Part shown: positions 1 through 14,148 of the stretch, piece after piece
How the letters are laid out: each line of letters starts with the position of its first letter
How positions within the stretch are numbered: position 1 is the stretch's first letter
Assembly (NCBI RefSeq): GCF_006345805.1
Contig: NW_021825886.1
Location: forward strand, 1 to 14,148
Origin: Octopus sinensis
Lineage: Eukaryota
DNA length: 14,148 nucleotides
Reading direction: 5' to 3'
Program-made: the position numbers and the translations under genes
Notes under the pieces: generated by a model
Databases searched by the model: none
Told to the model about the DNA's origin: nothing
The model's input: the letters and a program-made list of their open reading frames with translations, nothing else

Positions 1-322
1 GCAAATTTCTGCTGCATCACATATTACAACTCCGCTAGTGTGTTTTCTTGGAGTTTTTTTCTTTCTTTTTTTTTTTGAGATAGTGGGAGTACAAACTCTT
101 CCTGATATTGCATTGAATAAATTTGTTTTGTTATGGGGTTTGGCTTGCGTCTTTTGTTGCATTAGTGTTTATATTGTGGTGTGCTGCGTGTGCAACGTGA
201 GTTTTGTTCTTCTGTTGGATATCCGACCATGTAGAATACATGTTGCGGAAGTTCTTTATTTCATTAGACATTTACTGTACAGAGTGTGTCTTGTGTTTCT
301 GGATTGTCATATTTGGGTCGTA

Positions 323-607
323 TTATTGAATTGATAGTGTTCTTGCGTAGGATGTGGGCTGTTCCTAGCAGGGTTATCTTTTGAATAATGTGTAGAGTTG
401 AGGATACAGGTATATATTCTACGCTTCTGGTTATACGTTTCTTTTAAAATCATGCTCAATATTCCAATTACAACTGGTATTCTTTTCACTTTCATACCCA
501 CATCTTTAATACTTCAATTTCAAGGTTTTTGCACTTAGACAATTTCTTCACTTCTTTTGAGCAATATTTTGATCAGAAGGAACCGCAACGTCTATTAGCA
601 AGCAAGT
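323..607 (-). pseudogene. C-terminal RLE endonuclease remnant of an R4/Dong-like non-LTR retrotransposon (5'-truncated, frameshifted); probable 3' UTR continues toward position 1
   Basis: Manual minus-strand translation across frameshifts gives TCLLIDVAVPSDQNIAQK / EVKKLSKCKNLEIEVLKMWGMKVKRIPVVIGILSMI / IIQKITLLGTAHILRK / TLSIQ*. This matches the IDV.VP...K..KY..L...IPVVIGALG...LQK..LLGTA.ILR terminus of RLE-type LINEs. Confidence 0.88.
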
Positions 608-763
608 CTATTTTTATTTATTTATCATCCCCCCCCCCCAATCCTTGATTATTATCTCTGGGCGATTAAATTTTATTCGTTTGTCGGTTTGAACAGGTAT
701 AGCTCAAATGATTGTGGCCTGGTCGTTATCATGTACCTTGTTTAGCACACGTTTATACCGTTT

Positions 764-985
764 TCTTATTTCTTTATTCCCACAAGGGGCTAAACATAGA
801 GCGGACAAACAAGGACAGACAAAGGGATTAAGTCGACCCCAGTGCATAACTGGTACTTATTCAATCGAACCCGAAAGGATGAAAGGCAAAGTCGACCTCG
901 GCGGAATTTGAACTTAGAGCGGCAGACGAAATACCGCTAAGCATCTCGCCCAGCGTGCTAACGTTTCTGCCAGCTCGCCGCCTTC
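764..985 (-). mobile_element. Full-length tRNA-type SINE (family A) with 16-bp target site duplication
   Basis: Minus strand reads GGCGGCGAGCTGGCAGAAACGTTAG (A-box-like), AGTTCAAATTCC (B-box), then GCCTTTCATCCTTTCGGGTTCGATTGAATAAGTACCAG. Flanked by CACGTTTATACCGTTT at 748-763 and 986-1001. Homologous copies occur throughout the window. Confidence 0.92.
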
Positions 986-1050
986 CACGTTTATACCGTT
1001 TCTTGTTAGTTTTTTTTTTATGTTGTAGTGTTGATATTTACCGAATGGAT

Positions 1051-1092
1051 ATTGCTGCTGCTGCTGCTACTACTACTACTACTACTACAACA

Positions 1093-1180
<88 letters not shown>
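1051..1180. repeat. Compound trinucleotide microsatellite (GCT)n(ACT)n(TCT)n(TAT)n
   Basis: Directly visible. Confidence 0.95.
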
Positions 1181-1190
<10 letters not shown>

Positions 1191-1400
1191 AAGGCGGCAA
1201 GTTGGCAGAATCGTTAGCGCGCCGGGCGAAATGCTTAGCAGTATTTCACCCGTCGCTACGTTCTGAGTTCAAATTCCGCCGAGGTCGACTTTGCTCTTCA
1301 TTATTTCGCGGTCGATTAAATAAGTACCATTTACGCACTGGGGTCAATTACATCGACTTAATTCCTTACCCCACGTTGCCCTTGTGGCAAAAATTTAAAA
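1191..1400 (+). mobile_element. SINE family A copy, followed by an (ATT)n tail to about 1493
   Basis: AAGGCGGCAAGTTGGCAGAATCGTTAG ... GAGTTCAAATTCCGCCGAGGTCGACTTTG ... GTCGATTAAATAAGTACC; aligns by eye with the reverse complement of 764-985. Confidence 0.9.
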
Positions 1401-1448
1401 TCATCATTATTGTTGTTGTTATTATTATCATTATTATTATTATTATTA

Positions 1449-1491
<43 letters not shown>

Positions 1492-1496
<5 letters not shown>

Positions 1497-1627
1497 AATT
1501 CCACCGAGGTTGACTTGCCTTTCATCATTTCGGGATCGATAAATTAAGTACCAGTTGAGTACTGGGATCGATGTAATCGACTATTCCCTCTCCCAAAATT
1601 TCAGGTCTTTTACCTTTAGTAGAAACG

Positions 1628-1630
<3 letters not shown>
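1492..1630 (+). mobile_element. 5'-truncated SINE family A copy with (ATT)n tail to about 1700
   Basis: Starts at the B-box remnant TTCAAATTCC; contains GCCTTTCATCATTTCGGGATCGATAAATTAAGTACCAG. Confidence 0.88.
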
Positions 1631-1699
<69 letters not shown>

Positions 1700-1701
<2 letters not shown>

Positions 1702-1925
1702 GATAGCAAGCTGGCAGAATCATTAGCAAACTGGGAAAAAAGCTTAGTGGTATTTCATCCATCTTTACATTCTGAGTTCAAATCCGCCAAGGTCGACTTT
1801 GCTTTTCATCCTTTCGGGTCGATAAATGAAGTACCAGTGAAACACCGGGGTTGATGTAATCGACTGGTCCCCTCCACACAAATTCCAGGCCTTGTACCTA
1901 TTGTGAAAAGGAATATTGTTATTGT
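1700..1925 (+). mobile_element. SINE family A copy
   Basis: GCAAGCTGGCAGAATCATTAG ... GAGTTCAAATCCGCC ... TTTCATCCTTTCGGGTCGATAAATGAAGTACCAG. Confidence 0.88.
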
Positions 1926-1934
1926 TGTAGTATA

Positions 1935-2135
1935 AGTGTGGTTGAGAGTGATGAATTGCCGTATTTATTTCGATTCTTTGTAGCCTGAGTTCATATTTTG
2001 TTGAGTTCATTTTTGCCTCTCGTCTCAACGGGGTCGATGAACTAATGAATCAATGAAGAACTGGGCTCGGTGTAATCGACTAATCCCTCTCTCCAGATTT
2101 CTGGTTTTCTGTTTATCTTAGAAAGGATTGTTTAT
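1935..2135 (+). mobile_element. Old, decayed SINE family A copy
   Basis: CTGAGTTCA, GGGGTCGATGAA, TGTAATCGACTAATCCCTCTC and TAGAAAGGATTGTT occur in the family order. Confidence 0.7.
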
Positions 2136-2756
2136 TTTACATTAGGGAAGGGAGAAGGAAGGAGGAAGAAAAGGAAGTAGAGTTGGAGGACGCATAAGGG
2201 TGACCAGCAGGTCTCACACACAGACTGGTAATGATTGATGTTGATGCTGGATTTCAGTTTTAACATATTCAGGTCAATGTCTGTAGTAAGAGGTAGACGA
2301 GGTTGCAGTGAGAGGAACCGGTATTTCGAATGCATGCAGCAAATTGGGAGCCTTTCAAAAAAAAAAAAAAAAAAAGGCACCCAAGGAACAGCTGGTGGCA
2401 GTGGGTGGTGGCAGCGCCGATGATGGTAAACTGGGAGACATTTTAGGTAGGCCTACCTACTATCTTCTCCAAAAAGAAAAAAAACAAATTGACCCACTTT
2501 TTTGTTTTAATTACTTAACTGGTGGTGGTGGGGGGAGGATAACAGAGAAAGTATAGAAATGACCGCAACCGGAAATGTTAACGAGTTTGCAGACAGAACT
2601 CGATGAGACCCTATTTCGTATCCTTGTAGCTGTCATCCGAGATGTTCTGTGAGAGAAATACCCAAACCAAAACAGACATGATGTAAACAATGGTCTTTTG
2701 TGAGAAATACATCACACACCGTTTCCGTAACTTATATTACATTATGGTGTTTCTTA

Positions 2757-3090
2757 ATCATCTTCTTCTTCTTCTTCTTCTTCTTCTTCTTCTTCTTCTT
2801 CTTCTTCTCCTCCTCCTCCTCCTTCTTATTCTTCTTCTCCTCCTCCTCCTCCTCCTTCTTCTTCTTCTCCTCCTCCTCCTCCTTATTCTTCTTCTCCTCC
2901 TCCTCCTCCTTCTTCTTCTTCTCCTCCTCCTCCTCCTCCTTCTTCTCCTCCTCCTCCTCCTTCCCCTCCTCCTCATTCTTCTCCTCCTCCTCCTCCCCCT
3001 CCTCCTCCTCCTCCTTCTTTTCTCTTCTTCTTCTTCTTCTTCTTCTTCTTCTTCTCTTCTTCTTCTTCTTCTTCTTCTCTCTTCTTCTTC
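2757..3090. repeat. About 330-bp (CTT)n/(CTC)n polypyrimidine tract
   Basis: Directly visible; accounts for the poly-L/S/F and poly-E/K/R ORFs. Confidence 0.95.
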
Positions 3091-3094
3091 GTGA

Positions 3095-3295
3095 CGGTGT
3101 CAAACGAAAATTTCCTGTTGTATTTAGTTCCACTTCTTCTGCTCTGATTTCAAACCCATCTGAGGTCGACTGAGTATTTTGACTCAGCGTAGTCTCTAGA
3201 GATAAAATTCTACACAATCGACTGTCGTTCCCCACCCTCTCTCTCTCTCTACAAGAAAATCCTGATGTTGTACTTGTGTAAGAAATCATTATCAT
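3095..3295 (+). mobile_element. Highly decayed SINE family A copy
   Basis: CTGATTTCAAACCCATCTGAGGTCGACT, GATAAAAT, AATCGACTG and TAAGAAATCATTATC occur in family order. Confidence 0.55.
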
Positions 3296-3763
3296 TGCCA
3301 TCGCCATCATCATCACCACCACTATTACTATCGACGACGTCATCGTCGTCGTCACCACCGCCACCAACAAAAACTACTACTACGTCTAAGTACCACGTGA
3401 TTGCAAAGCGAACTTGTTTACAGTGTTGTGCCTGTACACATACTACCTGCAACCATTGGCAACGTGCCTAGTGAATAAGGAAAATAAATAAAAATATGTA
3501 AGATATAAATTGATATAAAAAGGTCATCTTATTCTTTTTTTATTGTCTATGTAGACATTTTGTAGAAGCGGAAGTACCTGAACATAACTAAACAGAAAGC
3601 TACTTTGTGAATACAAAAATAATAGCAGCAGACATATTTGGGCGATATCCATTTGGATGTTTATATCAACTTGTATTGTTCTTTCACTACAATTGAAACA
3701 TAACGGTTTTCTTTTTAAGAATACTTTAAGACAACCTGAAAATTCCACGTTTATAAATACACT

Positions 3764-4020
3764 TGTGGAGGCGCGTGGCTTAGTGGTTAGGGTGTCAGCA
3801 TCGTAATCGTAAGATTGTGGTTTCGATTCCTGGACCGGGTGGCGTGTTGTGTTCTTGAGCAAAACACTTCCTTTCACGTTGCCCCAGTCCACTCAGCTGG
3901 CAAAAATGAGTAACGCTGCGACGGACTGGCGTCCCGTCCAGCTGAGGGGAACACATACGCAATAGAAAGCAGGAAACCGGGCCCATGAGACTAGCTAGGC
4001 TTTAAAAGGGCACATTTATT
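3764..4020 (+). mobile_element. tRNA-derived SINE family B with CORE-like central segment
   Basis: A-box TGGCTTAGTGG and B-box-like GGTTTCGATTCC, then GTGTTCTTGAGCAAAACACTT (similar to CORE GTGTCCTTGGGCAAGACACTT); ends in ATTT repeats. Confidence 0.88.
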
Positions 4021-4230
4021 TGTGGAGGCGCGTGGCTTAATGGTTAGGGTGTCAGTATCGTAATCGTAAGATTGTGGTTTCGATTTCTGAACCGGGCAAT
4101 GCATTGTGTTCTTGAGCAAAACACTTCATTTCACGTTGCTCCAGTCCACTCAGCAAGCAAAAATGAGTAACGCTGCGATGGACTGGCGTCCCGTCCAGCT
4201 AGGCTTTAAAAGGGTGCATTTATTTATTAT
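4021..4230 (+). mobile_element. Second SINE family B copy in direct tandem, with a 53-nt internal deletion
   Basis: Near-identical to 3764-4020 but lacks the segment equivalent to 3944-3996. Confidence 0.88.
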
Positions 4231-4319
4231 TTCAACTACCAGGGTGGATGATATCGATTTACTCCTTCTTAATATTAGTGGTTTTGTGCCTAAATAAGAA
4301 ATCATTAAATGCTTTGAGG

Positions 4320-4530
4320 GAGAGGACGTTAGACCATCAGAAAAATCCTTTACAGAATTACTTCTGATTCTTTACATTTTGAATTCAAATCCCACCAAGA
4401 TCAATTTTACCTTTCATCCTTTTTGAGTCGATAAAATAAAGTACCAGTCTAAGAACTTATGTCAATAATATTGACTGACTCTGTTTCTTAAAAGTTGCTG
4501 GCCTTGTGCCTAAATTAGAAACCATTATGT
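4320..4530 (+). mobile_element. Decayed SINE family A copy; a 3' fragment of another lies at about 4240-4310
   Basis: GAATTCAAATCCCACC ... CCTTTCATCCTTTTTGAGTCGATAAAATAAAGTACCAG ... GGCCTTGTGCCTAAATTAGAAACCATTA. Confidence 0.8.
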
Positions 4531-5029
4531 TAAGAATATCGTTTATAACTCTAATTTCGTCCCATAGTTAACGTTACTGAAAAATGTTACACTAGAACAT
4601 TGTTTCGTTGTATCTAAAGATTTCGATTATATCTTTGATATTACTCCCTAGTTAAGACTGTTTAAAACATAGCACTCCAGATTGTTTCATTATGTTAAAA
4701 ATTTCAGTTATACATCTTTAGTTTCGATCCATAAAAAACACGTAATACTCGAACACGCGTCGTGACAAGCAGAACACTATTATACGACGCGTAAAAAATA
4801 ACGGAGTTCGAGTAAACAAACTGGTGTGGGTCTGAGTCAGCAAAAATTACACAGTGAAGCTCATAGATTCTGGTATATTGAGCGTTGACCCTTCATCTAA
4901 CAGGTTAAAATTTTGACTTCTTCAGTCTGGTTGATTGAAGAAGTAGATACTCATACATGGAAAAAGATATAGGAATCCATCTCTGTTATTATTATTATTA
5001 TTATTATCAATGCTGTTAGGTCAAGTCTA

Positions 5030-5180
5030 ACAGACAGATCAGCAGTCGAAATGCTAACCTCGTGGTATTTAATTTCATCTCTTTACTTTCTGCTTTTCAA
5101 TTCCCGTCGGGGGTTGAGTTTGTCTTTTATTCTCTTGGAATCGATAAAATAAAGTACCAGTCTAGAAGTGAAGATCATTG
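5030..5180 (+). mobile_element. Decayed SINE family A fragment
   Basis: GAAATGCT ... GTGGTATTT ... TTCAATTCCCGTCGGGGGTTGA ... TCGATAAAATAAAGTACCAG. Confidence 0.7.
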
Positions 5181-5239
5181 TGACACAAGTCTTACAACGC
5201 TGAACATTTGAATTATGGGTGCAGTCGATCCTACGAGAT

Positions 5240-5405
5240 TCTTTCTATCTGGGTTTTTATCTATCCAGTTTCAGCTCCAAAGGATTGAGTCGAATCGAAG
5301 CTATGGAAAATGCACTTGAGTAAGATGTCACGCATTAGTTTTTTATTTATTTATTTTTTTTAGGGTGTATGACATGAACTACTTTAACTAATAAGTCGTG
5401 TTCTT
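5240..5405 (-). mobile_element. Highly decayed CORE-like SINE fragment
   Basis: Minus strand GCGTGACATCTTACTCAAGTGCATTTTCCATAGCTTCGATTCGACTCAATCCTT loosely resembles a CORE-type segment; recognised from memory only. Confidence 0.4.
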
Positions 5406-5547
5406 AAGATGCTGGCATGTGTAGTATAATCTGGGGAAAATTTAGCCGCTCTCTCTGACTACACAGAGGCTCCTTCGTTGAAGTCTATTTAATTGTCAGA
5501 GATCTTTTTAATCTTCTTTTATAACGTAAGAATATGCTTATCTTTCA

Positions 5548-5810
5548 GCTTATCTTGCTTCAGGACTACGGCCATGTTGGTGCACAACCTTGAAAAATTT
5601 CGTCAACCAACAAATCGATCCCAGTACTTATTTTAAGTCTGGTACTTGATTTATTGGCTTCTTTTGCCGAACCACTAAGTTACAGGGGACGTAAGCAAAC
5701 CACTGCCAGTTGGGGGTAAGACACACAGTGAGGGGTATACAGTGGCACTGAACTCGAAACCATGTGGTAGTAAAGCGAGCTGTCTAACCACACAGCCATG
5801 CCTGCCCCTA
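5548..5810 (-). mobile_element. tRNA-type SINE family C, probably internally deleted
   Basis: Minus strand TAGGGGCAGGCATGGCTGTGTGGTTAG (A-box) ... GAGTTCAGTGCC (B-box-like) ... AATAAATCAAGTACCAG ... GTACTGGGATCGAT (motif shared with family A). The head is repeated at 9078-9103. Confidence 0.78.
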
Positions 5811-5829
5811 ACTGAATATCATATTCTAC

Positions 5830-5965
5830 GTCTGTACTTATTACAAGTCTATTATATCGACCTTCAGAAAAGAATATAAAAATAGGAAAATCCAAACCGG
5901 GCTGGATTTGAACTTGCAATGTAAATGTCGCTGGGCATTTTATCCGACACTAATGATTCGGCAAG
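5830..5965 (-). mobile_element. Decayed SINE family A copy
   Basis: Minus strand TTGCCGAATCATTAGTGTCGGATAAAATGCC ... AAGTTCAAATCCAGCCCGG ... GGTCGATATAATA. Confidence 0.62.
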
Positions 5966-6481
5966 AAAAAAAATTAAACTTAAAACAAAAAAAACCACCG
6001 ACAACCCCAACCCGGCACTATTCCCTGATGGGAGCTGAACGAAGTACAAGAGGAGACTGAAATAAATACCATGTCATTATGTTCGGTACCCCATCGCTTT
6101 TCGTTAATTTGCTTCCTCAACGAGTGTATAAGAACAGCTTACTATCAATGAGGATATAAATGTCCCAGTCTTTAACTCCATAACACGTACAGTCAGCCAT
6201 CAATAAAAGTTGTCACTTATATGACACTTGATGACTAGAAGAGACATGGTGGGGGTTTGAGGTGGTAAGAGAGAGAGAGCAGTGTTGATAAAAGCAATAA
6301 CAGCAACAGCAACAACAACAAAACAAAATCAGAAAGCTATAATTCATATCGTAATAGTTTCTGACATATCAACACTTTTCTTCGCACTTTCTTTTCTATT
6401 TGCTTTGTCTCTTGTATGTCTATATCTCTATATATGTTTATGTGCGTGTATGTATAAGTACATATAAATATGTATATATAT

Positions 6482-6519
<38 letters not shown>

Positions 6520-6688
6520 ACATAAGGGACTAAAGCCATCTGAATATGGCTAGGGACAGGGCAGGTGGTGGGGGTGTTACTGTTGCATTTAGCCCCAGGC
6601 GAACATCGACGTCGCTAGATAGGCTTGACACCATCACGGTGTCCTTTAACCTGCAAAGGGAGATAATTCCCCGATGAAGCGGAAACCA

Positions 6689-6734
6689 CACACGGACCAT
6701 GGTTTCAAGGTGTATTGCCTATCGTCAACGTGTG
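6689..6734 (-). ncRNA. Identical hammerhead motif in the inverted arm
   Basis: Exact reverse complement of 6960-7005. Confidence 0.78.
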
Positions 6735-6959
6735 GTAGGCCTCCGCTTCCTCGACGAAATCTCACCACCCTGCCCTGTCCCTAGCCATATTCAGATGGCT
6801 TTAGTCCCTTATGTTATCGAGCAGTTACTGTCTATATCTCTTTTAGAGAATTATTATTGCTGTCGAACAGATTTTCGAAATCAGCAAATGTATTTTGCTT
6901 GAAAATCTATATATGAATATCCTGCAGAGTGAGATTTCGTCGAGGAAGCGGAGGCCTAC

Positions 6960-7005
6960 CACACGTTGACGATAGGCAATACACCTTGAAACCATGGTCC
7001 GTGTG
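6960..7005 (+). ncRNA. Type I hammerhead ribozyme motif with palindromic stem III
   Basis: cacacg-UUGACGA-U-agg(caauaca)ccu-u-GAA-ACCAUGGU-C-cgugug. Perfect 6-bp stem I, short stem II, GAAA, 8-nt palindrome ACCAUGGU, GUC cleavage triplet (cut predicted after 6999). C3 is U. Confidence 0.8.
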
Positions 7006-7222
7006 TGGTTTCCGCTTCATCGGGGAATTATCTCCCTTTGCAAGTTAAAGGACACCGTGATGGTGTCAAGCCTATCTAGCGACGTCGATGTTCGCCTGGG
7101 GCTAAATGCAACAGTAACACCCCCACCACCCTGCCCTGTCCCTAGCCATATTCAGATGGCTTTAGTCCCTTATGTTATCGAGCAGTTACTGTCTATATCT
7201 CTTTTAGAGAATTATTATTGCT

Positions 7223-7238
7223 ATATATGTATATATAT

Positions 7239-7271
<33 letters not shown>

Positions 7272-7330
7272 GTATATATATGTATATATATATATATGTA
7301 TATATATTATATATATGTATATGTATATAT

Positions 7331-7362
<32 letters not shown>

Positions 7363-7753
7363 GTATATATATATGTGTATATATATATGTATATATATAT
7401 ATATGTATGTATATATATATATGTATATATGTATGTATATATATATATGTATATATATATGTAATATATGTATATATATATATGCATATATATATGTATA
7501 TATATATGTATATGTATATATATATGTATATATTATATGTATATATATTATGTATATATATATATGCATATATATATGTATATATATATGTATATGTATA
7601 TATATATGTATATATATATATGTATATATATATGTATATATATATGTATATGTATATATATGTATATATATATATGTATATATATATGTATATATATATA
7701 TGTATATGTATATATATATGTATATATATATATGTGTATATTATATATATATG

Positions 7754-7786
<33 letters not shown>

Positions 7787-7827
7787 ATATATATATATAT
7801 GTGTATATATATATTATATATATATAT
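7223..7827. repeat. About 600-bp (TA)n/(TATG)n microsatellite; further TA tracts at about 6466-6516, 8614-8670 and 10424-10492
   Basis: Directly visible; source of the Y/I/M-rich ORFs. Confidence 0.97.
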
Positions 7828-8613
7828 TTAATATAAAAGGGCTTAGTAAAATAAATTACTTTGCCACATACTGAACTCATTAGAAATAGCAGCCAAAAAA
7901 GTTTTTTAGCTATTTCTAATACTTAAAGAAAATTTCTCTCAGATAGTGTTTACTCAGAATAACCCACGAAGGTATGCGGGTAAAAACATTAAAAAATCAC
8001 AAGTGCAAAGATTATTTGAGATCGTTACGTTTCTAGATCAGCCAAATAAAATTCGACATTTCTTTCGTCAGCCCAAAATTTCTTAATTTGGATTTGGAAA
8101 CACTGAAAGTAGGAACATATCCTTTTGGCGACTTAACACCTCAGACGACCCGCTCAAACTGACAGTGCCAACAAATTCAAAATATGCAAGCGAAGAATTC
8201 CTGTTCTCCCTTTCCACCCACGTGGGCTAAACTAGCAAACACCATATTTTAGCGGTGAAAACCGAGGCAATAAACAGAGAGAAATGAATTATAATTTCAA
8301 CAATTGAGGGTAAAATTAATTAGTTATTAATCAATTTCACCAAGTATTCAGTATGTAAAAGGACCATTTTAATATAAAAGGGCTTAGTAATAAACACTAT
8401 CTGAGAGAAATTTTCTTTAAGTATTAGAAATAGCTAAACAACTTTTTTGGCTGCTATTTCTAATGAGTTCAGTATGTGGCAAAGTAATTTATTTTACTAA
8501 GCCCTTTTATATTAATGTAATATTTTGAATTCGCCTAAAATGGTCCTTTTACATACTGAATACTTGGTGAAATTGATTAATAACTAATTAATTTTACCCT
8601 CAATTGTTGAAAT
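7828..8613 (-). mobile_element. Non-coding fold-back / partial-tandem element 2 (Penelope-like pLTR architecture), monomer about 541-564 nt, inserted in (TA)n
   Basis: 7828-7952 is the reverse complement of 8391-8515 (1 mismatch). 8294-8371 is the reverse complement of 8536-8613. 7828-7849 is directly repeated at 8369-8390 (period 541). Strand assigned from the candidate hammerhead. Confidence 0.78.
8015..8077 (-). ncRNA. Candidate minimal hammerhead motif with imperfect stem I
   Basis: uuuggg-CUGACGA-a-aga..gucgaau(uuu)auuuggc..ucu-a-GAA-ACGU-A-acgau-cucaaa. Both core strands are intact and the ACGU palindrome is present, but stem I is offset by 5 nt. Confidence 0.42.
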
Positions 8614-8617
8614 ATAT

Positions 8618-8671
<54 letters not shown>

Positions 8672-9077
8672 TTGGTTATTGTTTTAAAATTGAATTGTGT
8701 CAATGTTTGGGGAAATTTACAATATTTTCACCGTCTTTACGGAAGCATTTTTGTTAAAATTCCTTCGATAGAAGAAAGTCCAAAAATGAATTTCGCTGCA
8801 GCCGTACACTTCTATACAAGAGGGAAGACAAGATCCAATTGATCGAAATTGCAAGAGACGGTCCTACAATTCCAGTCTGTTATATATTTTGAGTATTGTT
8901 ATAATTACCGATATCAAGATATAACTTTCTATTTTGTATTTTATGTGTAGATGTATATATATATATATATAGAGAGAGAGATGTACATGTAATATGTACA
9001 TATATATATACACGCATATACATGCATAATATATCTACCCATACACATACACGTACACACACACACACACACATACA

Positions 9078-9103
9078 TAGGGGCAGGTGTGGCTGTGTGG
9101 TAA
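9078..9103 (+). mobile_element. Isolated 26-nt 5' head of SINE family C
   Basis: TAGGGGCAGGTGTGGCTGTGTGGTAA matches the reverse complement of 5785-5810 at 23/26 positions. Confidence 0.7.
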
Positions 9104-10321
9104 CAAACTACGTTCAAAGATACTGTACTTGATATGGGCGGTAGTGCCTTGCCGGTTCATGGCCTACCTTCAACAAACGGGAAGGCACAAACACTCTGTC
9201 TTCACATTGCTGCGTGAGATATGTTTTAATGTTGACGAGCTTGCCGAGTACATAGCCGACAATGAGCCAAAGCTCCTTCCAGAACAGAATTTGCTTACAA
9301 CTCCGTTGTTAATTCAGTCCGGGCCAAAGCTGTGGGGATATTTTTCCTGGACGCTCCTGGGGGCACTGGGAAAACTTTTCTCAACAAATTAATATTGGCT
9401 GAGATTAGGCGAACACAAGGCATTGCCCTAGCTGTGGCATCATCTGCAATTGCGGCTACTTTGTTGCCAGGCGGCAGGACAGCTCACTCCACTTTCAAAC
9501 TTCCGCTTGACTTAGCGAAGACTGAGACACCAACTTGCAACATCAGTAACAGCTCCGATCAGGCAGAAGTCTTCAGACGATGCAAGCTTATCGTTTGGGT
9601 TGAATGCACGATGGCCCACAGAGGTGCTCTTGGGGCACTAGATAGATCTCTCAGAGACATCAAACACTCTTCAGCTCCCATGGGAGGCATAACACTTCTT
9701 CTTTCAGGGGACTTCCGACAAACACTTCCCGTTATTCCCAAAGGGACTAGAACTGATGCAGTAAGTGCGTGTCTTAAGTCATCCACCTTGTGGCCACTGG
9801 TGAAAACTCTCAAACTTCACACCAATATGCGTGCTCAAATGCGACGTAATATCACATCAGCAGCATTTTCTCACACCCTCCTTGCACTTGGCGAAGGCAA
9901 AATACCAGGGGATGAAAATGGTAATATTGCCATCGATTCCATTTGTACCATTGTTAAAACGCCTTCTGATCTCAGAGATGCAGCGTTCCCAGATCTACAA
10001 GCTAATTATCAGAATAGGGATTGGATTGGCCAAAGGGCTATTCTGGCCCCGAGGAATAAAACTGTTCACCATATTAATGATGAAATGCTAAAACTCATTC
10101 CTGGGGATGTCTATGTATATAAGTCTATCGATACAACTCCTGATCTAGAGGACGTCATCAACTATCCAATAGAGGTACTCAATTCCTTTTAGACCCCTGG
10201 ACTACCACCACACATTCTCAAACTTAAAGTTGGTGCCCCTATAATGCTCATTAGAAATTTGGTTCCCCCAAAACAATGGAATGACACACGTTTGATCGTT
10301 AAGTCCTTATCTCCCACAGTA
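9104..10321 (+). pseudogene. Helitron RepHel PIF1-family (SF1B) helicase remnant
   Basis: Contains FFLDAPGGTGKTF (Walker A), ASSAIAATLLPGGRTAHSTFKLP, LIVWVECTM (Walker B, DE changed to VE), GDFRQTLPVIP and RAILAPRN. After the TAG at 10190-10192 it continues TPGLPPHILKLKVGAPIMLIRNL..QWNDTRL. Upstream frameshifted pieces read MGGSALPVHGLPS and LLREICFNVDELAEYIADNEPKLLPEQ. Motifs V/VI and the HUH Rep domain are absent. Confidence 0.93.
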
Positions 10322-10423
10322 AACTTATATCAATATTTGCCTGAATAATCATCATAATTCAGTGCAATCATTAATAGTACTTTCAAGCAATTCAGCCCCG
10401 AGCATCGCCAGGCATTCTGCTAG
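9104..10423 (+). mobile_element. Defective Helitron (5'-truncated, internally deleted) with intact 3' terminus
   Basis: RepHel helicase remnant followed by the GC-rich subterminal sequence GCCCCGAGCATCGCCAGGC (10395-10413) and CTAG (10420-10423), then T of a (TA)n tract. This is the canonical hairpin-CTRR|T end. Confidence 0.88.
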
Positions 10424-10473
<50 letters not shown>

Positions 10474-10492
10474 ATATTATATATATATATAT

Positions 10493-10635
10493 AGTATTAT
10501 TGGACGCTCAAAAAGAAGAAAAGAAGGAGGGTTTAACGTTTCGAGCGGAGCTCTTCGCCGGAAACATAGGAGAAGGAAAGATCCAGAGAAGGGAAAACAG
10601 AGGAAAAAAATCGCCAACGGTACACACGCGGTCAG
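10493..10635 (-). mobile_element. Short Penelope-like pLTR fragment (element 3) between (TA)n and (GA)n
   Basis: Complex 140-bp island containing a minimal hammerhead motif; its 3' side abuts (TA)n. Confidence 0.65.
10531..10565 (-). ncRNA. Minimal hammerhead motif with short palindromic stem III, core mutated
   Basis: guuu-CCGGCGA-A-gagc(ucc)gcuc-GAA-ACGU-U-aaac. 4-bp stem I, 4-bp stem II, GAAACGUU; the core reads CCGGCGA instead of CUGANGA. Confidence 0.72.
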
Positions 10636-11133
10636 AGAGAGAGAAGGATGGAAGGGGGAGACAGGCAGCCGACAGACTGAGAAAGATATATACAGGCAGA
10701 TGGACAGAGAGATAGACGTTTAGACAGACAGATTATTTAGCAATAAAGTCACAAAAGTGATTCGAGAGCTAGTTAGTGTACGTGCGTTGCACTTATCGCA
10801 CACATGCAATGTACGAAATTCTTGAACCTGGAGTCGCTTTTGTGGGTTTACAGCTAAATATAATATAATATAAACAAAAAGAAACAGTCTGCTTTTGGGT
10901 ACTGAGTACCATTTCTCCTATGTGTGGTACCTTACGCTCACACGCATATACTCAGACACTCACACACATATGCTCACACACACTCACACACATGTTCGTT
11001 AAGAATACATATGTACATACACGTGTCTGGATGTTTGTGTATATGTATTACTTATGTACTCTGTGTTTGTGTACGTGTGTATATATATGAGATACGAGTG
11101 TATATACAGAGAGCAATGTGTGTGTTTGTGCAG

Positions 11134-11183
<50 letters not shown>

Positions 11184-11594
11184 GGGTGTGAAGGGTGTGT
11201 GTTTCTCTCCCTCCTTCATGTTCGGTGTAATTAATTTCTTATCTCAGTCTAATACTTCACACAACTGTTTCCGGTTCTGCCCAAATTATGTTGTACCAAG
11301 ATGTTTTCGGTCAGGACCGAAAATCACCTCACCAGCACCTCACCAGCCCTGCCTCATCACCAGCCACCGCTACCACCTCTACCATCACCACCTCCATTAT
11401 ATCGTTTTATTCCCATCATCAACGTCTTCACCTCCACCACCAGACCTCAGTGTATTTCCAATGCACTATCTTAATCACCATCACCATCACCGACGACGAC
11501 AGCATTAATATCACCACCTCTTCTACTACCTCCTCCGCTGCCATCCTCTTACATATAAAGGCAGGGAGGTGTTCTCTATATGACATTGAATTAT

Positions 11595-11603
11595 GATAAT
11601 AAC

Positions 11604-11671
<68 letters not shown>

Positions 11672-11682
11672 TAATAATAATA
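11595..11682. repeat. (AAT)n microsatellite; other (ATT)n tracts at 12130-12190, 12411-12516 and 13065-13150; (GT)n at 11137-11180
   Basis: Directly visible. Confidence 0.95.
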
Positions 11683-11690
11683 AGTGTTGT

Positions 11691-11830
11691 TGCGGCATTT
11701 CGTCCGTCTCAGTTCAAATTACGCCCGGTTCGACTTTGCCTTTCATCCTTTCGGGTTGATAAATTAAATCCCTTTGAAACCCCTCCTCCAAAATTTCAGG
11801 CATTTTACTTTAGTAGGAAGGATTGTTATT
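11691..11830 (+). mobile_element. 5'-truncated, internally deleted SINE family A copy
   Basis: AGTTCAAATTACGCCCGGTTCGACTTTGCCTTTCATCCTTTCGGGTTGATAAATTAA ... CCAAAATTTCAGGC ... AAGGATTGTTATT. Confidence 0.82.
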
Positions 11831-12045
11831 TCGGTTTGGCTCAGGTTCGGTCTTGTTCCTGGTTGGACTTTTGTGGATAGCGGCTTACTACCTGTAACCT
11901 GAAATGTCCACAGGATTTCAGCTGTCTTTCAAGTGTTTAGAACACCCCTGGTTATCCTTGCTGATCCTAAGAGACAAACTTTCTGTAGGAACTCTACCGA
12001 GCATTCTATTCCCATCTACTTCAGCCATTTGTCTATATCTTGACT
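11828..12045 (-). mobile_element. 3' end of a second RLE-type (R4/Dong-like) non-LTR retrotransposon
   Basis: 12045 to 11929 translates as SQDIDKWLK*MGIECSVEFLQKVCLLGSARITRGVLNT*, the LQK..LLG.A.I.R.VL terminus, followed by about 100 nt of putative 3' UTR. Confidence 0.8.
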
Positions 12046-12046
12046 T

Positions 12047-12128
12047 AGGGCGGCGAGCTGGCAGAATCGCTAATACGCTGGGCCAAAAGTTTAGCTGCAT
12101 TTAGTTCGTTTTTGTGTTCTAAGTTCAA

Positions 12129-12131
<3 letters not shown>
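12047..12131 (+). mobile_element. tRNA-like 5' half of SINE family A, ending at the B-box
   Basis: GGCGGCGAGCTGGCAGAATCGCTAATACG ... TTCTAAGTTCAAATT running into (ATT)n. Confidence 0.82.
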
Positions 12132-12163
<32 letters not shown>

Positions 12164-12190
12164 TACTACTACTACTACTACTACTACTAT

Positions 12191-12407
12191 ATAAAGGATT
12201 GAGGTAACTCCTCCAGAAGATATAGAGTCGAAATTAAAAGAAGGTTGCCATTGTTATCTAGTGAACGATATTTCGACATCTTGTGTGTCTTCACCTGGTT
12301 CAAAAAATAATTTTGTCAATCTACTTCATTTTGGTTATTATAGACACACAAAATGTCGAAATATCGTTCACTAGATAACAATGGCACTCTTCTTTTAATT
12401 TTGACTC

Positions 12408-12410
<3 letters not shown>
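12191..12410 (-). mobile_element. Small fold-back element 4 with degenerate minimal hammerhead, in (ACT)n/(ATT)n
   Basis: 69-bp inverted arms at 12222-12290 and 12342-12410 (4 mismatches by eye). Minus 12302-12262 reads ugaac-CAGGUGA-A-gaca(cacaaga)uguc-GAA-AUAU-C-guuca. Confidence 0.7.
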
Positions 12411-12464
<54 letters not shown>

Positions 12465-12471
12465 TATTATA

Positions 12472-12516
<45 letters not shown>

Positions 12517-13064
12517 GAGTGAGAGAGCAGTTCATGCCATCAAAGTGACACTGGGGTAAAATATACGAAGCCCATATACCCATCATGACTACCGTCTGAT
12601 AAAGGTACACCAGGCACATGCATCACAACCATATGTGCGCGACATGGTGATCTCATATCAAGATAAACAGCACATGACCTTGCAGGTGGGGCCCAGTTAG
12701 AATTTTCTTCAGTTGATTGAGGCCCATCCTGCTCAAACGGTCCTTGAATAAGGGTTGCTTTAGGATGTTGAACGAAACCCTATGTTCCAGAGGTGAACCA
12801 TTCAAACTCCAAAGAATCCTCTCAACACATGGCCATGATGCTCCCCCACTACTTCTGCTCGTGATCAGAGATGCACATATCGTCAGCCACTAAGGGACAT
12901 GCTCAACTGGTTAAGGTCAAACACTGACAGCAAATCTGTGGTATTGAGCAGAATATTTGCTGTAGCCCATCTTTTATACCAAGACAAAACAATGTACAGA
13001 TAACACTTCCAATCAGTTAAGATCAGAAGCCATGAGAGCCACTGCCTGGTACTGCATCAGGGCA
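12517..13064 (-). mobile_element. Unclassified 548-bp complex insertion within an (ATT)n tract; probable non-autonomous retroelement
   Basis: Sharp boundaries with (ATT)n on both sides, no ORF and no terminal inverted repeats. Strand inferred from a G-U-dependent hairpin. Confidence 0.5.
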
Positions 13065-13115
13065 TTTATTATTATTATTATATTATTATTATTATTATTA
13101 TTACTATTATTATAC

Positions 13116-13152
<37 letters not shown>

Positions 13153-13685
13153 AATAGACTGTCATCTGCTTCCTCTGTATGGAGGGAAATTGGTTGGATG
13201 TACATGGTGAGCTGCAGAATGTTATTCATATACATGTGTGTGTATGGAGAGAGAGAGAGAGGGGGGGGAGAGACAAACAGAGAGACAGAATGAAAGAAAA
13301 ATGTGAGTGTATGTGTGCTGTTGTGTGTGTGTGTGTGTGTATGCAGGTATGTGGCAGCGGTTGTGCGTTGGTGATGGTAGGAGTGTAACAAATGAATGGA
13401 TTCAAGGTCTATAATCTGTTCCAGGTGTCTGATATCATATATGTGAATATGTCTATACTTACTCCTGCATACCCATGCATGCACCAGCACATATACAGGC
13501 CCAGAGGCGCGCAAGTGCGTTACAAATGGAGTTACATGAACACACTCAGGACGGTTATGGAGTAAAATTTCATAAGTTTTATGATTGAATTAAAACATGA
13601 TAGAGTTTTTGACTCTGACATGAAACTATTCGTAACGATAGCAATATGATATAATATGATGCGTGTGTATACATACGTTTATATA

Positions 13686-13936
13686 TCATCATCATCATCA
13701 TCATCATCATCATTTAACGTCCGTTTTCCGCGCTAGCACGGGTTGGACGGTTTCGACCGGGGTCTGGGGAGCTCGGGACTGCCCCAGGCTCCAGTCTAGT
13801 TTGGCAGTGTTTCTACGGCTGGATGCCCTTCCTAACGCCAACCACTCCGCGAGTGTAGTGGGTGTTTTTTACGTGCCACCTGCACAGGTGCCAGAGGGGT
13901 CTGGCATCGGCCACGTTCGGATGGTGCTTTTTATGT
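13686..13936 (-). mobile_element. RTE-type LINE/SINE 3' end with (GAT)n tail
   Basis: Minus strand TTGGCGTTAGGAAGGGCATCCAGCCGTAGAAAC ... AACCCGTGCTAGCGCGGAAAACGGACGTTAAA(TGA)n. The AGGAAGGGCATCCRGCCGTA motif is recalled from RTE-associated repeats; not searched. Confidence 0.65.
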
Positions 13937-13943
13937 GGGGGGG

Positions 13944-14148
13944 GCAGAAATATAGGGGAGCACCAGTGGGAGGGATGGTTCAGAGGACAGGTACGAGGCA
14001 AGTAGAACGTAGGTTACCGAGAGAGGGGTAATGCATGGTGAAATAGCGTATTGAAGAGGGGGCTTCAAATAGTAGACACCTATAATGGTGGTGGGGCGGT
14101 GCAGAAATATAGGGGAGCACCAGTGGGAGGGGTGGTTCAGAGGACAAG
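13944..14148. repeat. Direct repeat with 157-bp period, running off the window
   Basis: 13944-13989 matches 14101-14146 with 1 mismatch. Confidence 0.8.

What the first reader, a model, noticed from the sequence alone, without database searches (positions are those of the whole stretch)
6763..7222. 361-nt monomer in 1.27x partial tandem: footprint of a circular or multimeric RNA template (retrozyme candidate)
Seen: a perfect 99-bp terminal direct repeat with period 361, one hammerhead per monomer, no credible ORF, and several hairpins (GACACC/GGTGTC, AGCCAT/ATGGCT). Established: retrozyme monomers of a few hundred nt self-cleave and circularise. Inference: reverse transcription more than once around a 361-nt circle would give this permuted repeat. 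Repeat identity suggests a recent insertion.
Basis: partly seen in the sequence, partly recalled or inferred. Interest (0 to 1): 0.72.

Follow-up and report, generated by a model that had tools for sequence, protein, structure and literature searches.

The report
Penelope-style retrozyme copy, odd hammerhead
This is one 706-base, two-armed copy of an abundant non-coding jumping repeat lying in a TA microsatellite, likely pasted in by a Penelope-type retrotransposon enzyme; it is a known kind of element, notable only because its self-cutting "hammerhead" motif departs from the consensus core in every copy examined, so its predicted cutting and RNA circles remain untested.

Summary
The 99-bp perfect direct repeat with period 361 (6763-6861 / 7124-7222) is real. 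It is only part of the feature. A 249-nt inverted arm (6517-6765) lies upstream, so the insertion spans 6517-7222 inside a (TA)n microsatellite.

The 361-nt unit ("M") is a dispersed family with at least 1370 first-look candidates in the 2.72-Gb own genome. In 44 independent loci:
- 68 of 74 outer 3' ends fall at two fixed sites, M50-55 or M94-99, which are 44 nt apart.
- 5' ends vary.
- 30 loci are head-to-head, and 26 of these pair one short end with one long end.
- Two head-to-head composites carry 10- and 12-bp target duplications.

This is the published insertion footprint of Penelope-like elements (PLEs): a tail, an inverted 5'-truncated copy and a (TA)n target.

It is never CUGAUGA (0 of 144 genome-wide), and Rfam does not detect it. 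A 352-nt sister family keeps the canonical core.

The element fits the retrozyme / non-autonomous PLE class. A circular RNA template is neither needed nor shown. It is a new member of a known kind, and this scan has already reported the same class several times in this genome.

The parts
6462..6519 (.). Left flank: (AT)n microsatellite, the target on this side
   Evidence: TRF row 6462-6519, period 2, 29.5 copies; sequence
6517..6765 (-). Inverted, 5'-truncated arm: reverse complement of unit positions M167-361 plus M1-55. Its outer end is at the first fixed 3' site (M55) and has no tail.
   Evidence: Inverted repeats I1, I19 and I25; BLAST to M; 248/249 identical to the right arm with 1 gap
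6763..6765 (.). Head-to-head joint: 3-nt overlap CAC shared by the 5' ends of both arms (microhomology)
   Evidence: Arm coordinates overlap by 3 nt; sequence GAAATCTCACCACCCTG
6763..7123 (+). One full 361-nt unit (M), non-coding, GC 45%
7124..7222 (+). It ends at the second fixed 3' site.
   Evidence: D3
7179..7222 (+). 44-nt 'tail' (M56-99): the sequence between the two fixed 3' ends. It is present at the outer end of this arm only; the same 44 nt also occur internally at 6818-6861.
   Evidence: compare the PLE tail in PMC8557442 and PMC11167929
6945..7018 (+). Hammerhead-like motif (type I shape). Helix I 5' strand 6945-6965; core UUGACGA 6966-6972; helix II 6973-6987; GAAAC-CAUG-GUC 6988-6999; predicted cut 6999|7000; helix I 3' strand 7000-7018.
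   Evidence: coordinates; homology to the Rfam-detected hammerhead of sister family S; helix I and helix II pairs in the consensus fold; not detected by Rfam in M
6676..6749 (-). Second copy of the hammerhead-like motif, in the inverted arm
7144..7161 (+). Hairpin AGCCAU-AUUCAG-AUGGCU, 17 nt upstream of the first fixed 3' end. Also at 6783-6800 (+) and 6534-6551 (-). Its 5 predicted pairs are identical in sister family S.
7051..7067 (+). Hairpin GACACC-GUGAU-GGUGUC (also 6627-6643 on the minus strand)
7111..7192 (+). Predicted 8-bp stem ACAGUAAC (7111-7118) / GUUACUGU (7185-7192, inside the tail). It brackets the hairpin and the first fixed 3' end. Kept in family S with one compensatory change.
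   Evidence: columns 254-261 / 328-335
7222..7835 (.). Right flank: long (TA)n microsatellite, the target on this side
   Evidence: TRF row 7222-7835, period 2, 311 copies

Best explanation
The stretch 6517-7222 is one copy of a dispersed, non-coding 361-nt repeat family, and was likely inserted into a (TA)n microsatellite in a single event by the reverse transcriptase-endonuclease of a Penelope-like element (PLE).

Inferred mechanism:
- The enzyme would cut both strands of the TA repeat and prime cDNA synthesis from each.
- On a longer-than-unit RNA of the family, synthesis would start at two internal sites 44 nt apart (M55 and M99), one per strand.
- The two cDNAs would run for variable distances (here 249 and 460 nt). 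Their far ends would be joined by microhomology (here CAC).
- This would give a head-to-head pair of arms, one carrying the 44-nt tail.

The unit is homologous to hammerhead-bearing retrozyme-type repeats. Its own hammerhead core is non-consensus in all copies examined, so self-cleavage is probably weak or absent and was apparently not needed for its spread.

Shown: the anatomy, the family statistics, the target, the target duplications, the motif state, and the presence of PLE genes with the same footprint.
Inferred: the enzyme, the two-strand priming, and the nature of the RNA template.
For: (1) Anatomy: a perfect 99-nt direct repeat and a 202-nt perfect inverted repeat extending to about 250 nt, flanked on both sides by TA repeats.

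(2) Family size: at least 1370 first-look candidates for the 361-nt unit, with the listed full-length matches (query 1-361) at 96-100% identity.

(3) Ends in 44 independent loci (L001-L030 minus duplicates L008 and L019, plus 16 of L120-L149):
- Of 74 outer 3' termini, 33 lie at M50-55, 35 at M94-99 and 6 elsewhere.
- 5' ends are spread over the unit.

(4) Orientation:
- 30 of 44 loci are head-to-head.
- 26 of those 30 pair one short end with one long end. None of the 26 is short+short or long+long.

(5) Target and single-event origin:
- 53 of 74 3' termini abut a (TA)6-like 12-mer, against 2 of 14 outer 5' ends.
- Target duplications of 10 bp (L003) and 12 bp (L004) flank whole head-to-head composites, so each composite is one event.

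(6) Opposite arms within a locus are more alike (median 99.34%, 17 loci) than copies from different loci (median 97.57%, 405 pairs).

(7) Joints have 0-11 nt of overlap or short filler. L003 and L129 share the same joint, M349/M62, through an 8-nt inverted microhomology.

(8) Literature:
- PLE insertions show 5' truncation, partial tandems, an adjacent inverted 5'-truncated copy, a 30-40-bp tail often at one end only, and (TA)n targets (PMC8557442, passages).
- A purified PLE protein cleaves and extends both strands, starts at two adjacent internal RNA sites that define the tail, prefers AT-rich DNA, and does not need hammerhead activity (PMC11167929, main text).

(9) Machinery in the genome:
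- At least 5029 GIY-YIG first-look candidates.
- A 781-aa family with RVT_1 plus a C-terminal GIY-YIG domain sits in (TA)n. Its 3' end comes with or without a tail of about 31 nt.

(10) Sister family S (352 nt, at least 2209 candidates) has the same architecture, with ends at S291 / S337, head-to-head arms and (TA)n targets.
Against: - No autonomous PLE sharing sequence with M was found. M has no significant similarity to 12 GIY-YIG loci of 3.2 kb, to 12 PLE loci of 10 kb (the only hit was an unrelated S insertion), or to the hammerhead-bearing PLE region of L119. The mobilising enzyme is therefore inferred from the footprint only.
- The loci were chosen as the best matches to the window's copy, so the tallies describe the young subfamily.
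- 4 of 30 head-to-head loci break the short+long rule, and 6 of 74 termini are off-site.
- 21 of 74 3' termini do not abut a clean TA run.
- No RNA of the family is shown.
Confidence: 0.8

Rival explanations
1. A 361-nt monomer is cut out by its hammerhead and ligated into a circular RNA. Reverse transcription runs more than once round the circle and yields the permuted 1.27x repeat. This could coexist with PLE-type integration; the question is only the form of the template.
For: - Arms longer than one unit exist, up to 846 nt or 2.35 units (L007). This needs a circle or a multimer.
- The unit folded as a circle is more stable than shuffles: -108.3 versus -85.5 +/- 5.3 kcal/mol, z = -4.3.
- The hammerhead-shaped motif has a long helix I, as in retrozymes.
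- Metazoan retrozymes of 170-400 nt are reported as circRNAs (PMC7229834, passages).
- Contigs of 4 public runs hold the permuted joint 7222->6862/6863. Tandem DNA gives the same joint.
Against: - 3' ends are fixed at two sites, not permuted.
- The hammerhead core is never CUGAUGA: 0 of 39 in the sampled loci and 0 of 144 exact genome-wide matches. Rfam does not score it.
- The published PLE model uses unprocessed multimeric RNA, and hammerhead mutants insert normally in vitro.
- 5' ends do not pile up sharply at the predicted cut site M237|238. 9 of 76 lie in M225-243, only about twice the even-spread expectation by my own rough estimate.
- No circular RNA has been observed.
Confidence: 0.2
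2. A SINE-like RNA mobilised by a LINE (non-LTR) reverse transcriptase, with the inverted arm produced by twin priming as in L1 5' inversions.
For: Fixed 3' ends, 5' truncation, variable target duplications (10 and 12 bp) and inverted 5' parts are also features of LINE-type target-primed reverse transcription. The twin-priming comparison is recalled, not read here.
Against: - There is no poly(A) or simple-repeat tail of the element's own.
- There are two discrete start sites 44 nt apart, with one of each per head-to-head insertion in 26 of 30 loci. Twin priming, as recalled, gives a variable internal priming point.
- 30 of 44 loci are head-to-head.
- Partial tandems of more than one unit occur.
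- All of these are described as PLE-specific.
Confidence: 0.05
3. A DNA-level structure: a foldback or MITE-type DNA transposon with long terminal inverted repeats, or a local palindromic duplication or assembly artefact in a small microsatellite-rich contig.
For: - 49-250-nt inverted termini.
- The window is a whole 14-kb unplaced contig.
Against: - The inner joint differs in nearly every locus.
- The two ends are unequal (with and without the 44-nt tail).
- 14 of 44 loci are single-orientation, 5'-truncated copies.
- Target duplications differ in length.
- The same architecture recurs on chromosome-scale contigs.
Confidence: 0.03

Closest known systems
Metazoan non-LTR retrozymes (Cervera and de la Pena 2020, PMC7229834, passages read; Li, Clavereau and Pollet 2026 preprint 10.64898/2026.07.22.740005, abstract and passages read)
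   Same: - Non-coding unit of a few hundred nt (361), GC below 50% (45%).
- Occurs in tandem, 1.07-2.35 units per arm.
- Type-I hammerhead architecture with a 2-bp helix III capped by a tetraloop and a U.U mismatch at the base of helix II, as described for an axolotl motif.
- Strongly self-paired RNA.
- Target duplications longer than 4 bp.
- The genome is rich in PLEs.
   Different: - The catalytic core is UUGAYGA or CCGAYGA, never CUGAUGA. The preprint defines an active retrozyme by a type I hammerhead in every repeat.
- Arrays are short and mostly head-to-head, not long tandem arrays.
- CircRNA is not shown.
Penelope-like element insertion footprint and non-autonomous PLE derivatives (Craig et al. 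2021, PMC8557442, passages; Frangieh et al. 2024, PMC11167929, main text)
   Same: - 5' truncation and partial tandem.
- Adjacent inverted 5'-truncated copy.
- Tail between two start sites, present at one end.
- (TA)n / AT-rich target.
- A hammerhead not required for spread.
   Different: - No ORF.
- The tail is 44 nt against the reported 30-40 bp.
- No sequence-related autonomous master was found.
- The PLE clade that would serve it is not identified. Hydra-clade and Neptune-like elements combine hammerheads with (TA)n targets.
Sister family S of the same genome (352-nt unit, e.g. L045 7936-8288, L075 1501-1852)
   Same: - Homologous along the whole unit: 197 of 365 alignment columns are identical.
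- Same hairpin, same tail position (46 nt), same target, same head-to-head rule.
   Different: S keeps the canonical CUGAUGA core in 33 of 36 copies. Rfam Hammerhead_1 scores it 26.6 bits, E 2e-4, below the gathering score of 34. M does not match in either respect.
L1 twin priming (5' inversions); recalled, no paper read here
   Same: Two cDNAs primed from the two strands of one staggered break and joined by microhomology.
   Different: Here both outer ends are specific internal RNA sites, and the inverted part duplicates rather than continues the other arm.

Membership tests
Metazoan non-LTR retrozymes | A type I hammerhead ribozyme in each repeat unit | tested here: inconclusive
   - Hammerhead-shaped motif at 6945-7018 with GAAA, GUC and helices I-III, homologous to the Rfam-detected motif of family S.
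- Core position 3 or 4 is non-consensus in 39 of 39 sampled copies and in all 144 genome-wide exact matches.
- No Rfam hit.
- Catalysis not testable here.
Metazoan non-LTR retrozymes | Short non-coding tandem repeats of about 150-450 bp, GC below 50% | tested here: met
   - 361-nt unit, GC 0.452.
- Partial tandems of 1.07-2.35 units.
- No ORF over 95 codons.
Metazoan non-LTR retrozymes | Expression as monomeric circular RNA after self-cleavage | not testable with these tools
   - Only contigs of runs whose RNA nature is a guess were available.
- These cannot show circles, ends or strand.
PLE-type insertion (non-autonomous PLE) | Fixed 3' end(s) with a 30-40-bp optional tail, and variable 5' truncation | tested here: met
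   - 68 of 74 termini lie at M50-55 or M94-99, a 44-nt tail.
- 5' ends are spread over the unit.
PLE-type insertion (non-autonomous PLE) | Partial tandem plus an adjacent inverted 5'-truncated copy, with the tail at one end | tested here: met
   - 30 of 44 loci are head-to-head, and 26 of those 30 have one tailed and one untailed end.
- Target duplications surround the composites in L003 and L004.
PLE-type insertion (non-autonomous PLE) | AT-rich / (TA)n target | tested here: met
   - 53 of 74 3' termini abut a (TA)6-like 12-mer.
- The window copy lies between TRF arrays 6462-6519 and 7222-7835.
PLE-type insertion (non-autonomous PLE) | Sequence similarity to the terminus (pLTR / 3' end) of an autonomous PLE of the same genome | tested here: inconclusive
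   - No similarity in 25 sampled PLE loci.
- At least 5029 GIY-YIG candidates exist, so only a small share was sampled.
Rfam Hammerhead_1 (RF00163) | Score at or above the gathering threshold of 34 bits | tested here: not met
   - No hit for M at any threshold tried.
- Sister family S reaches 26.6 bits.
- Other hammerhead families of the genome reach 48.2 bits.
MITE / foldback DNA transposon | Identical terminal inverted repeats with a constant internal structure and a fixed target-duplication length | tested here: not met
   - Ends are unequal (tail on one side).
- The inner joint is variable.
- Single-orientation truncated copies exist.
- Target duplications are 10 and 12 bp.

The most novel reading that the evidence does not exclude
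M is a retrozyme lineage whose hammerhead has lost the consensus core. Two sub-lineages exist, UUGA and CCGA; none has CUGA. It still spread to a thousand or more young copies. That would be in vivo evidence that neither ribozyme self-cleavage nor an RNA circle is needed for retrozyme mobilisation. Its head-to-head copies also record a strict rule: the two strands of one target break are primed from the two different internal start sites of the RNA, one each.
Probability: 0.35. Interest if true: 0.5.

Novelty: new member of a known kind. Interest (0 to 1): 0.35.

Why it matters
The element adds a well-resolved example to a question still open for Penelope-like elements and their ribozyme-bearing hitchhikers: how tandem and inverted copies and the 'tail' arise.

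- In 26 of 30 head-to-head insertions, one arm ends at each of two start sites. This matches the in vitro finding that a PLE protein cuts and extends both strands and starts at two internal RNA sites.
- A young, abundant family without a consensus hammerhead core sits beside a sister family that keeps it. This is a natural comparison for asking whether the ribozyme contributes to mobilisation at all.
- The class, the footprint and the link to PLEs are already in print, and this scan has reported the same class several times in this genome. The value is therefore confirmatory.

Tried and rejected
- **Rfam on the window.** Gathering score, E<=10 on 6400-7300 and E<=10 on 6945-7020 gave no ribozyme. 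The listed hits are low-complexity microRNA look-alikes in the TA repeats.
- **First motif scan.** I required C at core position 3 and wrongly suggested a minus-strand CCGATGA site. I dropped this once the sister family showed the true register.
- **Coding potential.** The 89-codon ATG frame starting in helix III (M232) has no significant tblastn match in 24 PLE loci and is not kept in family S.
- **Search for the autonomous partner.** I tried blastn of M against 12 GIY-YIG loci, 12 ten-kb PLE loci, the 781-aa family ends and the hammerhead-bearing PLE region of L119. A regex for canonical hammerheads in 24 PLE loci found only the S insertion in L045. No partner was found.
- **RF00163 search of the own genome.** This returned another hammerhead family, not M or S relatives.
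- **A 73-nt conserved module as query.** This returned only further M copies.
- **RNA evidence.** No RNA holder is listed. All 24 runs are contigs, and 'RNA?' is the tool's guess. Laying 4 runs showed presence, the tandem/circular joint and CC-core variants. It says nothing on strand, ends or circles.
- **Fuzzy-regex tabulation.** This timed out and was replaced by BLAST.
- **Rejected readings.** MITE/foldback, LINE twin priming and assembly artefact; see the rival explanations.
- **5' end clustering.** 5' ends at the predicted cut site are only weakly enriched: 9 of 76 fall in M225-243. This is not decisive.

Full report
**Observation**

The window holds two perfect 99-nt direct copies at 6763-6861 and 7124-7222, spaced 361 nt apart (family D3). 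Tandem Repeats Finder does not list them because 1.27 copies is too few.

A 202-nt perfect inverted repeat pairs 6564-6765 with 6929-7130 (I1). With one gap and one mismatch it extends to 6517 versus 7178 (248 of 249 aligned positions identical).

Take the unit M as 6763-7123. The whole insertion then reads: reverse complement of M1-55, reverse complement of M167-361, then M1-361 and M1-99. The two arms meet head to head at a 3-nt overlap, CAC (6763-6765). TA microsatellites lie on both sides (TRF rows 6462-6519 and 7222-7835).

**The family**

The window is the whole of contig C2357 of a 2.72-Gb assembly.
- The 361-nt unit has at least 1370 first-look candidates. The listed full-length matches (query 1-361) are 96-100% identical.
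- A 73-nt piece of it has at least 1005 candidates.

I mapped 44 independent loci against M. These were L001-L030 without L008 and L019, which repeat the L007 place, plus 16 new loci.
- Of 74 outer 3' termini, 33 lie at M50-55 (27 exactly at 55), 35 at M94-99 and 6 elsewhere.
- The 5' ends are spread over the unit.
- Thirty loci are head-to-head and 14 have one orientation only.
- In 26 of the 30 head-to-head loci one arm ends at the short site and the other at the long site. None of these 26 is short+short or long+long.
- The exceptions are L012, L018, L128 and L149.
- Fifty-three of 74 3' termini abut a (TA)6-like 12-mer, against 2 of 14 outer 5' ends.

Two head-to-head composites that landed outside pure TA repeats are flanked by target duplications of 10 bp (L003) and 12 bp (L004). 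Each composite is therefore a single insertion event. Opposite arms of one locus are more alike (median 99.34%, 17 loci) than copies from different loci (median 97.57%, 405 pairs).

Joints show 0-11 nt of overlap or short filler. L003 and L129 share the same joint, M349 with M62, through an 8-nt inverted microhomology.

These loci were picked as the best matches to the window's copy, so they describe the young subfamily.

**The hammerhead**

My first scan required C at core position 3 and found nothing on the plus strand. Rfam found no ribozyme either.

The register became clear from a diverged sister family S, met by chance in locus L045. There, Rfam Hammerhead_1 matches over its full length at 26.6 bits, E 2e-4, below the gathering score of 34. 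M aligns to S along the whole unit, with 197 of 365 columns identical.

In M the homologous motif is at 6945-7018:
- helix I 5' strand;
- core UUGACGA;
- a helix II with three predicted A-U/G-C pairs above a U.U mismatch at its base;
- GAAAC;
- a 2-bp helix III with the palindromic loop CAUG;
- GUC;
- helix I 3' strand.

A second copy lies on the minus strand at 6676-6749.

The core is not the consensus C3-U4-G5-A6-N-G8-A9 (consensus as quoted in PMC7151607, introduction read).
- In 39 full motif copies from 29 loci, none has CUGA.
- Genome-wide, a 33-nt pattern allowing C or T at core positions 3, 4 and 7 has 144 exact matches, with 0 in the control.
- Of these, 29 have C at position 3, and all 29 are CCGA. 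That gives 0 of 144 canonical.
- Contigs of four public runs also carry the CC form.
- By contrast, 33 of 36 S copies keep CUGAUGA.

PMC7151607 mentions rare natural core variants, including one with U at position 3, that are presumed active. PMC11167929 reports that C3G or G8C abolishes activity. Whether U3.G8 or C4 allows cleavage is untested.

**RNA structure**

Folded as a circle, the M plus strand reaches -108.3 kcal/mol, against -85.5 +/- 5.3 for 100 dinucleotide shuffles (z = -4.3, 60% paired). The minus strand gives z = -3.25.

The M/S consensus fold has 67 pairs, 18 of them with changes on both sides. These include four in helix I (columns 90, 92, 94 and 95). One more lies in an 8-bp stem joining ACAGUAAC (7111-7118) to GUUACUGU inside the tail (7185-7192). 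That stem brackets the invariant hairpin AGCCAU...AUGGCU and the first fixed 3' end. With only two sequences this is suggestive, not a test.

**Comparison with what is known**

Craig et al. 2021 (PMC8557442, passages) describe PLE insertions as:
- 5'-truncated, in partial tandems, often with an adjacent inverted 5'-truncated copy;
- carrying a 30-40-bp tail often present at one end only;
- targeting (TA)n in Naiad and Hydra elements, with canonical hammerheads universal in the Hydra clade.

Frangieh et al. 2024 (PMC11167929, main text) showed that a purified PLE protein:
- cleaves and extends both DNA strands and prefers AT-rich DNA;
- starts reverse transcription at two adjacent internal sites of the RNA, whose spacing is the tail;
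- needs no hammerhead activity.

They propose multimeric RNA as the template.

Cervera and de la Pena 2020 (PMC7229834, passages) define metazoan non-LTR retrozymes. These are type-I hammerheads in 150-450-bp low-GC tandem repeats, expressed as 170-400-nt circRNAs, in genomes that also hold PLEs. Li et al. 2026 (preprint, abstract and passages) argue that they are non-autonomous PLE derivatives.

M fits the PLE footprint on every feature I could test. It fits the retrozyme description except for the ribozyme core and the untested circle.

**Machinery in the genome**

There are at least 5029 first-look GIY-YIG candidates. [quoted passage not shown] It has 5'-truncated copies between TA repeats, and its 3' end occurs with or without an extension of about 31 nt. 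Another PLE carries a canonical minimal hammerhead just after its ORF. None of the 25 PLE loci sampled shares sequence with M, so the master element remains unidentified.

**What the 1.27x repeat means**

The right arm started at M99 and ran 460 nt, and the left arm started at M55 and ran 249 nt. The '99-bp terminal repeat' is the overrun of one arm past one unit, as in the pseudo-LTRs of PLEs. It needs a template longer than one unit, which could be a multimeric transcript or a circle. The data here cannot tell these apart. Units within an arm and opposite arms are about equally alike, and the tandem joint seen in public contigs fits both forms. Fixed 3' ends and a non-consensus ribozyme make the circle unnecessary, not impossible.

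**Earlier notes of this scan**

Notes seen after my reading was formed report the same class and footprint for several other unit lengths in this genome. These include a 352-bp family that is probably S. They agree with this report but are not independent evidence.

**Verdict**

This is a real feature, larger than reported: a new member of a known kind, a retrozyme-type non-autonomous repeat with a PLE insertion footprint. Its one unusual trait is a fixed non-consensus hammerhead core. Interest 0.35.

Noticed in passing
window 9332-10192 (+): An open frame of 286 aa matches the Pfam PIF1-like helicase domain (E 1.8e-58). It is probably a fragment of a Helitron-type or PIF1-bearing element.
   Followed up: no
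window 1-14148: The window is a whole 14-kb contig dense in simple repeats, with 48 TRF rows. Examples are (TCT)n at 2761-3090 and (TA)n at 7222-7835. Overall GC is 0.375.
   Followed up: no
L045 7936-8288; L075 1501-1852 (-): Sister family S is a 352-nt non-coding unit with a canonical type-I hammerhead core (33 of 36 copies). It has at least 2209 candidates, ends at S291/S337 (46-nt tail), head-to-head arms and (TA)n targets.
   Followed up: partly
L043 2262-6271; L085-L088: A young PLE family of about 4 kb with a 781-aa RT + C-terminal GIY-YIG ORF and an A/C-rich 5' region. Its roughly 1-kb 3' region holds 92-nt tandem repeats around TGATGACGTC. Copies are inserted in (TA)n, and one copy (L043) carries an extra tail of about 31 nt.
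   Followed up: partly
L089-L118; L119 (reverse strand about 5009-5060): A different, abundant minimal hammerhead family (GUACCUGAAGAGACCC...CGAAACAUGUGUC) scores up to 48.2 bits with RF00163. In L119 it lies 88 nt after a 720-aa ORF.
   Followed up: partly
L007/L019 (C5:38.90 Mb) versus L008 (C9302): The flanks are the same, but one record holds two full units and the other holds one. This is either a haplotype difference in unit number or an assembly collapse.
   Followed up: no
M family loci: Arm 5' ends are over-represented in the last third of the unit: 39 of 76 lie in M241-361. Small clusters occur at M336-339 (L007, L131, L017, L012) and M348-349 (L003, L005, L027, L129). The latter lies at the edge of the 8-nt inverted motif ACAGTAAC/GTTACTGT.
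   Followed up: partly
window 6966-6967, public runs X1, X5, X7, X14: Contigs of all four runs read C at both positions (core CCGA) and differ from the window copy at further places. This is a second sub-lineage, also present 29 times in the own genome.
   Followed up: partly
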